Below are positions 60,001 through 63,253 of a stretch of 63,253 nucleotides of DNA, piece by piece (position 1 is the first letter of the stretch; each line of letters starts with the position of its first letter). Source of the DNA: Stx2-converting phage Stx2a_F422; the sequence record AP012531. The stretch is one strand, 5' to 3'. Made by a program: the position numbers.

Positions 60001-63000
60001 TTAATGTTAAGCGTCTTGCCGGACGCGTAATGTTAACTGGGGCTTTTCTCTATCTGCCGTTGGTGTTCATGCCCGAGGCAGATAGCCTCAAGCACCCGCA
60101 GCAATTCTACTTAACTCTCCTTTTCCCGCAAACCGTTTTTATCTCCAGCGACAAATCGAATACACAACCAGCACCACCGCCATTACTGTTCCTACATTTG
60201 CGAATGCTTCAGGCCAGGTCATTGATTCACCTTCTGCTCAATATTTTTAAGGTCATTTTCCGCATACAGTATTGCAGTTCTTGCTGCCCGCAACCGTGCT
60301 TTGGTGTTCTTTTCTTCACGCTCGAGGCTGGCAACAGATTCTCGGAGCTGATCGTGTCTGTTATGAAGCTGTCTAATCTCTCTCACCACAGCCTCACCAT
60401 CGTTCGCACACCGCAGAACATACTGAAAAGGGTCCACAACACATCCGCACTGCAAGCACAGGATAACGTGATCCTGTTCATGAACCTCAATGGCCCGATG
60501 CTTACAGCTCTGTTGTGTGTAGTTTTTTCTGCCAGTTACTGTAATGTTCAGCAGCTTCTCTTCATCGCGCTTTGGCTGCACCAGTGTGATGATATTATCG
60601 CCTTCATTTTCCATCAGTTCACCTCCTGCGGCGGTTCTGGTAGCGGCATCCAGTGTGACGGTTTCCACGACGCACCAGGAATTATCCACCCATCATTAGC
60701 GTCAGGATGCCCCGGGATGTAAGTCGCCCACTTCATTCGCCAGTCACCTTTCCTGTCAAACTCCACGGCAACAAGAACGGCTGTTTTGGTATCCGGCATT
60801 CGCTCACTACAACTTATCCAACCATCCGGAGTTACCGGAGAGTTGCCAGACAGCGCATTCTGCAACCGTTCCAGCTTAACGTATTCCTGAACCCTGTTTC
60901 CGTCGCACGCCTGAAGCCATTGCTCAGCCTTTTGCGCATCAGTGTGAAAGGCACAAGTGCGACCGTCATCAAATTGCATTTCGTAGAGGTTAGCAATCTG
61001 TTCAAACTGCGTGTGTGGCAACTTGTAAGTTTGGCTTACGAGTTCGGCTTCCAGTTCTGCTATGCGCTTCTCTGATGCTTCAAGTAACGCCTGCTTATCG
61101 CGTAGCGCTTCTTCCAGTTCAGCAACATGGCATTCACTATCAATAAGGTTGTTCTCTGCTGCTCCCAGCTCAACTCTCAGCTTCCCAACCGTAAGCGCAA
61201 TCTCCTCGTTCTCCTGGTCGCGGCGTTTGATGTATTGCTGGTTTCTTTCCCGTTCATCCAGCAGTTCCAGCACGGTAGCCGGGTTAGCCTCTGCTATGAA
61301 TTCAGCGTTGCATAAGCCTGAGCATCTGTTTCAACCAGGCAGTTAACATGACATTCTGCAATCACGCCACCGGGTTCTCCTTTCCATTTTTGGCAAACAA
61401 AAACTCCTGTTAAATTGCCGTGCTGGTTAACAGATGTATGCCCTACGATGTAGCTTCCTTTAGTTGCTTTCTCTGCCTTTTCACGCAGTGCCTGATAGTC
61501 AATCTTGCTCATTTTTCTCTTCACTCCGGTATACAAGGATTACTACGCCCCCTCTGCTAATTGCGCGAGCTGGATCCCCTGGTTCCATGCCGTCAATACC
61601 GAAGGCTTCGAAAAATGCATCTATTGCCTTTTGGCGTTGCTCCTGCTTACGGCGTTTATTCCATTTTTTCATGAACAACAGTGACAGCCATCGTCCGCTG
61701 CAGAACATGATGTAGAAATAACCAAGGAGCGCTAGGCCGGTGTTCAGGGCTGTATCGATCGTTATCGTGGTGTTGATGTTCACTTCACACCTCTCTGTTT
61801 GTTGATAAGTTCAATATCCTGCTGGCAACTGGCGCAAGCTCTGCATCCACGAACAGCCAGGCGTCGCCGCTCATCTATCGGATCGCCACACTCGCAACAA
61901 TGAGTAGCAGATGGGGCATTACTATCGGATTTGTATTTTTGCAGGGAGAGATTGCGCTGCAATTCTTCGATTTCAGCGGCGTTGTCGATGATATCTGCCA
62001 TTTTCCTTTCCTTCAGGCATGAAAAAAGGAGCCGAAGCTCCTTTGGTTTTAGAATTCGAATTGCCTTGCCCGCAGGCTTTTCAGCATTGGTCTGGCCCGC
62101 TGAACTACGAAACTCGACTGGTCAAGCCGTGCCGCCTCTCTCAGTAGCACATCTCTGTTCTTCGTCACCATGTAGATGGTCTCAAACGCAATGTCATACA
62201 GCTTGTTCGTGTATGAGGAGTTCAGCTCTTTCATGATCGGATACAGGTGTTTGCTGAGGTCCTGGGCTTTTTCCATCCAGAGTTGCATGTAGCAGAGGAG
62301 GATGATTTCCTCGTCTGTGAATTGTTGCTGTGGTTCTGCTTGTGCCGACTGCATGTTGCGAAGTTTCTTTTCGCACTCGATGAAGTATCTGCGTATCTGT
62401 CGGCCTTTTTCGTTACGCTCTACCATCGCCGTTTCTTTGGCTGTATCGAGGGTAAGGTGGTAGTCTTTTTTCCCTCGCCCATAACCTATTTCCCGTTTCT
62501 GGGAAATAGCTATATAGTCCTGATTTTCAACGAATCCGTACTCTTCAATACGTTCTGTAATCCACGATGCAAAGCGTTTACCTACTCCAAGAAAAGTATG
62601 TAAATCACGGGCATTAACGAGAAGAGTGGTTTCGTTGGCGATAGTGCCGTTGAATACGGGGATGCGTTGACTGGTCATGATGACCTCCTTATTTGTTTAG
62701 TTTATAACCGCCAGTTAGTAGCTGGCGGTCGGGTGTCAACTGAGCCAAATAAGAAGCTCTGGGCATATTCCCCTTGCGGGTGTTGTATTACGCCTCTCCA
62801 CCCGACCTTTGTACGGATGTAACTATGCCAAATTGCAGGCATAAAAAAGCCGCAAAGCTATCGGGTGCGGAGACCGCTTATTTGTTCAGTGCGGTCAGTA
62901 TGCGATAGCTCTGGAGGATTTGTCAATCAGCGGAATATTGATGAACGGGTAACGGTAAATGCCTCATCCAGAAAATTAACGCAAATTCGCATCGCAAACT

Positions 63001-63253
63001 TGCGTTAATTATCTGAAATATCAAGTTAAATCCCCTTAAATGTTTGGGGCACTATTGGGGCAAAATGTGGTTGTTTGGGGCACTATTGGGGCAAAATGTG
63101 GTTGTTTGGGGCATATTTGGGGCAAAAAAGAACGTATAAAGAACGGTGTAAAATTGATTTCTTCATGGTCAAAATGAGGTGTAACAGATTGAAAAATATA
63201 TGCTCTTGGACGATCTTCGGTAATTCTGTGTTTTTAATGCTTCATGGTTTCAA

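What the first reader, a model, noticed from the sequence alone, without database searches (positions are those of the whole stretch)
62976..63130. Operator-like palindrome plus iteron-like direct repeats near the right end
TTAACGCAA-N15-TTGCGTTAA is followed 30 bp later by 2.9 tandem copies of a 31-bp unit, giving six TTGGGGCA cores in 90 bp, about 120 bp from the window end. Candidates are integrase or host-factor arm sites of the right attachment site, or a binding array controlling the divergent antirepressor-like gene. The array is too short and spacer-free to be CRISPR.
Basis: seen in the sequence. Interest (0 to 1): 0.5.

Follow-up and report, generated by a model that had tools for sequence, protein, structure and literature searches.

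The report
Integrase arm sites plus sib hairpin
The direct repeats are very probably the docking ("arm-type") sites for the phage integrase in the right attachment site of a 933W-type Shiga-toxin prophage. The neighbouring palindrome is the counterpart of phage lambda's sib/tI RNA hairpin, which limits integrase expression. Both are ordinary, well-understood kinds of element, although this phage's own records do not annotate them as such.

Summary
The window is a 933W-like Stx2 prophage cut exactly from the attL core to the attR core (GTTTCAA at 1-7 and 63247-63253).

**Repeats.** The 31-bp repeat (63041-63133, three units) carries six TTGGGGCA sites arranged as three pairs, 11 bp apart within a pair.
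- Two more sites lie at the other prophage end (71-89), inside the 3' end of int.
- The same pair-spacer-pair layout sits at the same distance from the core in about 60 distinct prophage ends whose integrases are 43-100% identical. These elements have different cores and different neighbouring genes.
- The integrase has an arm-DNA-binding N-domain (PF12167).
- The repeats are therefore arm-type Int sites of the P arm. The unit number varies between near-identical phages: Sakai 2, 933W 3, Min27 4.

**Palindrome.** It is a 23-pair hairpin (62967-63017) that is markedly more stable as RNA on the int-sense (minus) strand.
- It aligns in sequence, fold and position with the lambda/HK97 hairpin, which the HK97 record annotates as the "sib retroregulation site" and the phage 434 record as a terminator.
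- It is most likely a tI/sib-type retroregulator of int, not an operator.
- It stays with the att module in relatives that lack the antirepressor-like gene.

This is a known kind of element, and no binding or RNA assay has tested it.

The parts
62967..63017 (-). sib/tI-like RNA hairpin. It has an outer 6-pair stem, a 1-nt symmetric mismatch, a 17-pair inner stem and a GAU loop. The 3' arm runs into UUUUCUGG.
   Evidence: Inverted repeat. Minus-strand RNA folds at -27.9 kcal/mol against -18.1 for the plus strand, z = -6.6. The same strand bias holds in all four natural variants. It aligns with and shares its structure with the lambda/HK97 sib hairpin.
63041..63133 (+). Three tandem 31-bp units. 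Each unit is one pair of arm-type sites plus a spacer. Units 1 and 2 are identical.
   Evidence: TRF score 158 and family D1. AP004402 annotates it only as 'arrangement gg; region III'. Unit number is 2 in VT2-Sakai, 3 here and in 933W, and 4 in Min27.
63044..63062 (+). Arm-type site pair 1 (TTGGGGCAC-TA-TTGGGGCAA, 11-bp step)
   Evidence: conserved columns in the family alignment
63075..63093 (+). Arm-type site pair 2, an exact duplicate of pair 1
63106..63124 (+). Arm-type site pair 3 (TTGGGGCAT-AT-TTGGGGCAA), the core-proximal pair
63184..63196 (-). IHF-consensus-like site TTTCAATCTGTTA, one mismatch from WATCAANNNNTTR. Relatives have a perfect AATCAATGCATTA at the same place.
   Evidence: Read from the sequences. 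The consensus is from general knowledge. This is an inference.
63202..63212 (+). Conserved box GCTCTTGGACG (family consensus GCTCYTGGRCG), followed by TCTTCGG and TTCTGTG at roughly 10-bp steps. The binding protein is unknown; the excisionase is a guess.
63247..63253 (.). attR core GTTTCAA
   Evidence: Annotated 'attR core' or 'attachment site' in the 933W and Stx2 phage I records. The same 7-mer is at window 1-7.
1..7 (.). attL core GTTTCAA
71..89 (+). P' arm pair TTGGGGCAC-GT-CTGGGGCAC, in the same orientation as the P-arm sites and embedded in the last codons of int
   Evidence: The pair is kept in Int homologues of 68-73% identity and in Rac, although the Int C-terminal tail is only 17-39% identical.
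29..1363 (-). int, a tyrosine integrase with an Arm-DNA-bind_2 N-domain (likely ATG at 1339)
1351..1361 (-). Second copy of the box GCTCTTGGACG, immediately 5' of the int ribosome-binding site
1392..1691 (-). xis, a DUF1233 putative excisionase

Best explanation
The region 62902-63253 is the P arm of the phage attachment site. In the prophage it is seen as attR.

Arm sites (inferred function):
- After the phage DNA circularises, the P arm joins the core GTTTCAA and the short P' arm (window 8 to about 95) to form attP.
- The integrase binds the core with its C-terminal domains and binds the TTGGGGCA sites with its N-terminal arm-binding domain. There are three pairs in the P arm and one pair in P', all in the same orientation.
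- The sites step by 11 and 31 bp, so they lie on roughly one face of the helix.
- Bending factors probably fold the arm back onto the core so that a recombination complex forms at wrbA. Candidates are an IHF-like site and the conserved GCTCYTGGRCG box, which lie between the sites and the core.
- The ancestral state is two pairs. The third pair here is a recent exact duplication of one 31-bp unit.

Hairpin (inferred function):
- The palindrome distal to the sites works as RNA on the int-sense strand. It lies 266 nt past the int stop codon, across attP.
- It most likely acts like lambda tI/sib. Transcripts that read through int and attP fold into a hairpin of about 23 pairs. That hairpin ends transcription or, more probably, is cut by RNase III, which exposes int mRNA to 3'-to-5' decay.
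- In the prophage the hairpin is separated from int, so int is freed from this control on induction.
- In the lysogen the same hairpin also faces transcription entering from the host wrbA promoter.

Shown versus inferred: sequence, conservation, domain content, RNA fold and similarity to annotated sib sites are shown. Protein binding, termination and RNase III cleavage are inferred.
For: Identity of the element:
- The window is 100% identical to 933W and Stx2 phage I over 62700-63253 and ends at their annotated att core.

Arm sites:
- Int carries Arm-DNA-bind_2 (PF12167, E = 6e-26) plus the catalytic domain.
- The motif occurs in both arms.
- A collection scan for the site pattern returned about 45 enterobacterial prophage ends with the order pair, 13-25 bp, pair, conserved box, core. 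Many lie 261-272 bp from the contig end, and some are on the same contigs as Int homologues of 70% identity.
- A scan seeded only on the box again found the sites upstream in every true family member. The sites were missing only in chance hits inside coding sequence.
- In the family alignment the four sites and the box are the best-conserved columns, while the cores differ.
- Fels-1 (71% DNA identity) and Rac (IntR 43% identical) keep the sites in both arms.
- The Int N-domain is 75-80% identical across subfamilies, against 53-71% for the middle domain. The C-terminal tail is 17-39% identical yet keeps both 7-mers.

Hairpin:
- Minus-strand RNA is more stable than plus-strand RNA in all four variants.
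- Variants show a G-C to A-T compensatory change and a mismatch turning into C-G.
- The arms align with lambda's: CAGA..ATTAxCGCAAG against yTTGCGyTAATTTTyTG.
- The identical lambda-type sequence is annotated 'sib retroregulation site' in HK97 and 'terminator' in phage 434.
- On a joint alignment 92% of cells pair, against about 45% when the partner columns are slid. Four pairs change on both sides.
- The position matches: just distal to the outermost arm site on the int-sense strand, in lambda, HK97 and here.
- sib as a site distal to int that lowers Int from the pL transcript is described in PMC2951348 and PMC5300877.
- wrbA is transcribed in the window's minus direction and therefore into attR.
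Against: - No binding, footprint, termination or RNase III data exist for this integrase or this hairpin. No paper in the searchable library describes them.
- The U-run after the stem is short (UUUUCU) and is interrupted in two natural variants. The simple terminator scan did not call it, so termination is doubtful.
- One substitution in the diverged variants (C to T at 62983) gives G.U on the plus strand but an A.C mismatch on the minus strand.
- The covariation rests on essentially two clades, so there are few independent events.
- Most relatives of this Int family have no such hairpin. 41 of 66 have a LexA-box-like promoter at that position. The hairpin is therefore not an obligatory part of this att type.
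- No CII-type TTGY-N6-TTGY site was found near xis/int, so a lambda-like pI promoter is not evident.
Confidence: 0.8

Rival explanations
1. The palindrome is a DNA operator. A dimeric regulator (CI, an antirepressor partner or another repressor) binds the two TTAACGCAA half-sites and, perhaps together with the repeat array, controls the antirepressor-like gene transcribed leftwards.
For: The arms are a perfect 11-bp inverted repeat. A sigma-70-like promoter (TTGACA, 18 nt, CATACT, at 62926 to 62897 on the minus strand) faces the AntA-domain gene about 45 bp from the palindrome.
Against: - The half-sites are 24 bp apart start to start, about 2.3 helical turns, which is untypical for a dimer operator.
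- The 'spacer' is itself self-complementary and shows a compensatory change.
- The half-site occurs nowhere else in the window, including the immunity region.
- The palindrome and the repeats persist in P13374 and phi191, which lack the AntA gene and whose -10 region differs.
- The sequence and fold match the annotated sib hairpin of HK97 and lambda.
Confidence: 0.07
2. The hairpin is only an insulating terminator at the prophage edge. It stops transcription that enters from the host wrbA promoter, or from int, before it reaches the antirepressor-like gene. It has no role in controlling int.
For: wrbA reads into attR on the minus strand. The hairpin lies between attR and the promoter-like site at 62926. 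A run of U follows the stem.
Against: A 23-pair stem is far longer than typical intrinsic terminators, and the U-run is weak and not conserved. The similarity to sib, including the outer stem that pairs the U-run, argues for the processing design. The two roles are not exclusive.
Confidence: 0.25
3. The 31-bp repeats are a neutral minisatellite, or iterons of a replication or partition system, rather than protein sites used in recombination.
For: The unit number is polymorphic among near-identical phages (2, 3 or 4 units), and two units are identical, which is typical of slippage or unequal crossing-over. Head-to-tail TGGGGCA arrays with an 11-bp period exist in unrelated genomes.
Against: The two-pair layout, its orientation and its distance to the core are conserved down to 43% Int identity and across different insertion sites. 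The motif also occurs in the P' arm, where it overrides protein-level divergence. No replication gene is adjacent. The extra third unit itself may well be neutral.
Confidence: 0.05

Closest known systems
Arm-type Int sites of phage lambda attP (P1, P2 in the P arm; P'1-P'3 in the P' arm)
   Same: - The integrase has two DNA-binding specificities.
- Short direct-repeat sites lie in both arms, tens to about 200 bp from the core.
- The P' sites overlap the 3' end of int.
- Spacings of about 11 and 31-32 bp resemble the lambda footprints 'int 1' and 'int 2', which start 32 bp apart, and the 41-bp 'int 4' footprint.
- A bending-factor-like site lies between the arm sites and the core.
   Different: - The motif differs: TTGGGGCA, not the lambda arm consensus.
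- The N-domain family differs: PF12167 Arm-DNA-bind_2. No lambda Int chain was among the solved-structure matches at E <= 0.01.
- Sites come in pairs: two ancestral pairs, three here, against two single sites in lambda's P arm.
- All eight sites share one orientation.
- The insertion site is wrbA.
Lambda/HK97/434 sib retroregulator and tI terminator
   Same: - It sits in the same place, just distal to the outermost P-arm site and downstream of int across attP, on the int-sense strand.
- The arm sequences are similar and the fold design is the same: an outer stem that pairs the U-run, a single mismatch, and a long inner stem. The energies are nearly equal, -28.4 and -27.9 kcal/mol.
   Different: - The inner stem is longer (17 pairs against 12 plus a small apical stem).
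- The U-run is shorter (UUUUCU against UUUUUU).
- It lies 235-281 bp from the core centre, against 147-196 bp in HK97, because the arm is longer.
- It is attached to a different integrase family.
- Its function here is untested.
Rac prophage IntR/XisR module of E. coli K-12
   Same: IntR is 43% identical to this Int (E = 4e-116). XisR is the YdaQ protein to which the Stx2 phage I record likens this phage's excisionase, which here scores as DUF1233. (T/A)GGGGCA sites lie in both attL and attR in the same orientation.
   Different: Rac inserts in ttcA. Its sites are partly degenerate. It has no GCTCYTGGRCG box and no sib-like hairpin in the stretches examined.

Membership tests
Arm-type sites of a heterobivalent tyrosine integrase (lambda-type attP) | The cognate integrase has a separate N-terminal arm-binding domain | tested here: met
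   PF12167 Arm-DNA-bind_2 at residues 7-70, E = 6e-26, plus PF00589
Arm-type sites of a heterobivalent tyrosine integrase (lambda-type attP) | Repeated motif, different from the core sequence, present in both arms flanking the crossover core | tested here: met
   Six sites at 126-206 bp on the P side and two at 67-85 bp on the P' side of the core GTTTCAA
Arm-type sites of a heterobivalent tyrosine integrase (lambda-type attP) | Sites co-vary with the integrase lineage, not with the core, the insertion site or the neighbouring cargo genes | tested here: met
   The layout is conserved in wrbA, yecE, Fels-1 and ttcA (Rac) elements and in phages lacking the adjacent gene
Arm-type sites of a heterobivalent tyrosine integrase (lambda-type attP) | Direct binding by the Int N-domain, and a requirement for recombination | not testable with these tools
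   Needs gel-shift or footprinting and att mutants. No report was found in the searchable library.
Lambda sib / tI retroregulator | Hairpin encoded downstream of int across attP, on the int-sense strand, and separated from int in the prophage | tested here: met
   It lies 266 nt past the int stop in the attP configuration (intact attP seen in L010) and at the opposite prophage end in the window
Lambda sib / tI retroregulator | Long, nearly perfect RNA stem (about two helical turns) whose outer part pairs the U-run | tested here: met
   6 + 17 pairs, -27.9 kcal/mol, with the minus strand favoured in all variants. The design is the same in lambda.
Lambda sib / tI retroregulator | Sequence and structure similarity to an annotated sib site | tested here: met
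   Aligned with HK97 'sib retroregulation site', lambda and 434 'terminator'. 92% of cells pair and 4 pairs change on both sides.
Lambda sib / tI retroregulator | RNase III cleavage, and lower Int from read-through (pL-type) transcripts only | not testable with these tools
   Needs RNA end mapping and rnc mutants
Lambda sib / tI retroregulator | Efficient intrinsic termination (tI) for a CII-dependent pI transcript | tested here: inconclusive
   The U-run is only UUUUCU, and the terminator scan did not call it. No TTGY-N6-TTGY site lies near xis/int.
Repressor operator | Half-sites reused at other regulated promoters, with helical-turn spacing and a spacer free to vary | tested here: not met
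   There is no other copy in the window. The spacer is self-complementary with a compensatory change.
Replication iterons / CRISPR | Adjacent initiator gene or origin (iterons); unique spacers between repeats (CRISPR) | tested here: not met
   The neighbours are the att core and an AntA-type gene. The units are head-to-tail with no unique spacers.

The most novel reading that the evidence does not exclude
Two readings are not excluded.

1. The number of arm-site pairs (2, 3 or 4 units of 31 bp, which keeps the helical phase) is a fast-evolving dial. It would set how readily 933W-type Stx phages integrate into and excise from wrbA, and so how stable toxin lysogens are.

2. The conserved GCTCYTGGRCG box occurs once between the arm sites and the core and once directly in front of the int ribosome-binding site. 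It could be the site of one protein (perhaps the DUF1233 excisionase) that couples assembly of the recombination complex to int expression. No such link has been described for this integrase family.
Probability: 0.2. Interest if true: 0.5.

Novelty: new member of a known kind. Interest (0 to 1): 0.3.

Why it matters
It gives a concrete, testable site map of attP/attR for the integrase family that places the clinically important 933W/Sakai-type Stx phages, and relatives inserting at yecE, the Fels-1 site and Rac's ttcA, into their hosts. The map comprises the arm motif TTGGGGCA in 11-bp pairs, a conserved box, an IHF-like site and a sib-type hairpin.

The public records inspected annotate none of these by function. 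The 933W record annotates only the att core in this stretch, and AP004402 names the repeat merely 'arrangement g/gg'.

The map could help to:
- define prophage ends automatically;
- interpret the unit-number polymorphism seen between outbreak-strain phages;
- design experiments on Stx-phage integration, excision and int regulation.

Conceptually it is expected biology.

Tried and rejected
1. **Long-range RNA pairing.** The box copy in the P arm, read on the int transcript, is complementary to the copy before the int ribosome-binding site. The two copies appeared to co-vary: GGACG with GGACG, and GGGCG with GGGCG, in five intact attP loci. I considered that they pair only in the non-integrated state. 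Locus L180 (intact attP, Int 68% identical) has GCTCTTGGGCG in the arm but GCTCCTGGACG in the leader. That gives two mismatches in any duplex. The idea is rejected in favour of a degenerate protein site.

2. **P arm of the 73%-identity Int (L031).** Looking for it by pattern found only chance hits. That Int's DNA has no close match in the phage collection.

3. **Hairpin distribution.** Scanning the viral collection for the palindrome found it only in the wrbA lineage. The 19 other hits have unrelated spacers and at most one TGGGGCA within 300 bp, so they look like chance.

4. **Rfam.** No family matches the hairpin or the repeats. The only real hit nearby is sRNA-Xcc1.

5. **CII-type promoter motif near xis/int.** None was found.

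6. **Literature.** Searches for arm-type sites or sib in 933W and Stx phages found nothing relevant. The original 933W, Stx2 phage I and sib papers are not held. What I say about RNase III acting at sib therefore rests on general knowledge, the HK97 and 434 record annotations, and two papers that describe sib.

7. **Operator reading.** Rejected; see the rival explanations.
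Full report
**What the window is.** The last 554 bases are 100% identical to phage 933W and Stx2-converting phage I. The window ends exactly at the 7-base 'attR core' or 'attachment site' annotated in those records. The same GTTTCAA opens the window. The window is therefore a complete 933W-type prophage, running from the attL core to the attR core and inserted in wrbA.
- int lies at 29-1363 on the minus strand, next to attL, followed by a DUF1233 excisionase gene.
- The finding lies in the last 280 bases. In the circular phage genome these are joined to the int end. In lambda terms they form the P arm of attP.

**The observation.**
- The tandem repeat has period 31, 2.8-3 copies and TRF score 158. 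The first two units are identical.
- Six exact TTGGGGCA fall at steps of 11, 20, 11, 20 and 11 bp.
- The palindrome is longer than noted, with 22-nt arms around a 3-nt loop.
- The 7-mer TGGGGCA is not over-represented in the window as a whole.
- Seven of the eight exact 8-mers lie within about 210 bp of the att core. One of them, plus a 1-mismatch neighbour 11 bp away, sits at the left end (71-89) in the same orientation.

**The repeats are arm-type integrase sites.** The integrase has an N-terminal Arm-DNA-bind_2 domain (PF12167, E = 6e-26) in front of the catalytic domain. The comparative evidence is as follows.
- Near relatives differ only in unit number: VT2-Sakai has 2 units, 933W and this window 3, and Min27 4. 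Phages about 83% identical in this stretch (Stx1a phages, the O104:H4 phage P13374, phi191) keep two pairs.
- Integrase homologues of 68-73% identity insert at other places (yecE, or wrbA of another genus). They keep a TGCCCCA-N4-TGCCCCA pair in the last codons of int.
- A scan of the viral collection for the site pattern returned about 45 enterobacterial prophage ends with one architecture. This is pair, 13-25 bp, pair, an AT-rich stretch with an IHF-consensus-like site, a conserved box ATGCTCTTGGRCG..., then about 35 bp to a variable core.
- Many of these lie 261-272 bp from the contig end. Three are the far ends of contigs whose near ends carry the 70% Int.
- A second scan seeded on the box alone avoided circularity. 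Hits that belong to the family all had the sites upstream. Hits without sites were chance matches inside coding sequence.
- In a 19-sequence alignment the four sites and the box are the most conserved columns, while the cores differ.
- Salmonella Fels-1, whose integrase the record itself likens to 933W Int, has four sites.
- The K-12 Rac prophage (IntR 43% identical, E = 4e-116) keeps (T/A)GGGGCA sites at both ends.
- Across subfamilies the N-domain is 75-80% identical and the middle (core-binding) part 53-71%. The C-terminal tail is only 17-39% identical yet always contains the two 7-mers. There the constraint is on the DNA, not on the protein.
- Pair-spacer-pair TGGGGCA sites also lie next to tyrosine integrases in Acidithiobacillus and in Firmicute-type viral contigs.

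Binding itself has not been tested, and I found no paper that describes these sites. AP004402 annotates the repeat only as 'arrangement g/gg, region III'.

**The extra unit.** The ancestral state in the family is two pairs. The third pair here is an exact copy of the distal pair. Min27 has both pairs doubled.
- A 31-bp step is close to three helical turns, so added sites stay on the same face of the helix. This last point is an inference.
- In complete E. coli genomes the region occurs in 216 of 5426. Among the full-length matches in the evenly sampled rows, 14 span 263 bp (the two-unit form) and 4 span 294 bp (the three-unit form).

**The palindrome is a sib/tI-type RNA hairpin, not an operator.**
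- Folded as RNA, the minus (int-sense) strand gives 6 + 17 pairs at -27.9 kcal/mol. The plus strand gives -18.1, because two C.A mismatches on the plus strand become G.U pairs on the minus strand.
- The same strand bias holds in all four natural variants.
They also show a mismatch turning into U.G and then C-G. One change favours the other strand.
- On the int-sense strand of lambda, just distal to arm site 'int 1', lies ACAGAGCATTAGCGCAAG...CTTGCGCTAATTTTTTGT. The identical sequence is annotated 'sib retroregulation site' in HK97 and 'terminator' in phage 434.
- The 933W hairpin TCAGATAATTAACGCAAG...TTGCGTTAATTTTCTGG aligns with it arm for arm.
- Both have an outer stem that pairs the U-run, a single symmetric mismatch and a long inner stem. 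The energies are almost the same.
- On the joint alignment 92% of cells pair, against about 45% when partner columns are slid. Four pairs change on both sides, for example G-C in lambda against A-U here. Only two clades contribute, so independent events are few.
- The hairpin is 266 nt past the int stop when attP is intact, as in locus L010. In the prophage it sits at the opposite end, which is the arrangement on which sib control depends.
- PMC2951348 and PMC5300877 describe sib as a site distal to int that lowers Int made from the pL transcript. The RNase III step is from general knowledge.
- P13374 and phi191 lack the antirepressor-like gene and about 4 kb next to it. Homology to the window resumes at 62902, so the hairpin and the sites travel with the att module.
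- The half-site has no other copy in the window.

**Reservations about the hairpin.**
- The U-run is weak and is broken in two variants, and the simple terminator scan did not report it. Processing is therefore more likely than efficient termination.
- No CII-type motif was found near xis/int.
- Within this integrase family the hairpin is confined to the wrbA lineage. 41 of 66 distinct P arms instead have a LexA-box-like promoter at that place, and 19 have neither.
- wrbA is transcribed into attR on the same strand. The hairpin may therefore also stop host read-through in the lysogen.

**A lead that failed.** The 11-base box GCTCTTGGACG occurs exactly twice in the window. One copy is in the P arm (63202-63212). 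The other is inverted, directly before the int ribosome-binding site (1351-1361).
- Both copies are conserved in all subfamilies down to 68% identity and seemed to co-vary.
- This suggested a pairing between the 5' and 3' ends of an int transcript made from attP.
- Locus L180 has different versions at the two places, which would give two mismatches.
- I therefore read the box as a degenerate protein site (GCTCYTGGRCG) for an unknown binder. The excisionase is a guess, prompted by two weaker TCTT-type repeats at about 10-bp steps after the P-arm copy.

**Verdict.** The operator and antirepressor-control ideas are not supported. Both elements are new, unannotated members of well-known kinds. The interest is modest.

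Noticed in passing
window 62719-62807 (-): Full-length match to the Rfam family sRNA-Xcc1 (RF02221, 69 bits against a gathering score of 53). It lies between a promoter-like site (62926 to 62897, minus strand) and the start of the AntA/P22_AR_C-domain gene 62049-62678. It therefore sits in that gene's leader.
   Followed up: partly
window 63202-63212 (+) and 1351-1361 (-): The conserved box GCTCYTGGRCG occurs once between the arm sites and the core, and once directly 5' of the int Shine-Dalgarno sequence. Both copies are kept in Int subfamilies down to 68% identity, and both are absent in Rac. An RNA-pairing explanation was tested and rejected. The binding protein is unknown.
   Followed up: yes
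relatives, e.g. L093, L099, L096, L138 (about 35-110 bp distal to the first arm site): 41 of 66 distinct P arms of this integrase family carry a LexA-box-like CTG-N10-CAG. 20 of them have the strict CTGT-N8-ACAG. In the examples read, the box lies inside a near-consensus TTGACA...TATAAA promoter pointing away from att. The 933W lineage has the sib-like hairpin at this position.
   Followed up: partly
window 29-140 (-), int C-terminus: The last ~36 residues of Int are only 17-39% identical between subfamilies, yet they always encode AP-x-(V/M)-P-(Q/H). This is because the two P' arm 7-mers lie in this coding stretch.
   Followed up: yes
genome loci L260-L302: Head-to-tail arrays of TGGGGCAnnnn with an 11-bp period (5-10 copies) occur in very distant taxa: Bacteroidales, Planctomycetes, cyanobacteria, actinomycetes, Nitrosopumilus and Patescibacteria. 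No test against other 7-mers was made, so they may be ordinary short tandem repeats caught by the pattern.
   Followed up: no
window 59773-60097 (-): A hok/sok-type toxin-antitoxin. sok matches RF01794 at 113 bits (59923-60097), next to a 70-residue ORF (59773-59985) that ends in a Hok-like peptide. The 933W record calls them mokW/sokW.
   Followed up: no
window 63161-63169 and 63240-63248 (+): CTTCATGGT occurs twice, once abutting the core and once about 80 bp into the P arm. It might be a core-type half-site and an extra copy, or it might be chance (family D3).
   Followed up: no
L124 8471-9256 (+): In a distant relative (Int C-terminus 31% identical) the gene next to the P arm is again an antirepressor-type protein (ANT/KilAC, E = 2e-27). 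Antirepressor-type genes beside attP may be a recurring arrangement.
   Followed up: no
window 50338-58758 (+): A single open reading frame of 2806 residues lies about 4 kb from the right end. It is retained in P13374, where it is annotated as hypothetical ORF78.
   Followed up: no
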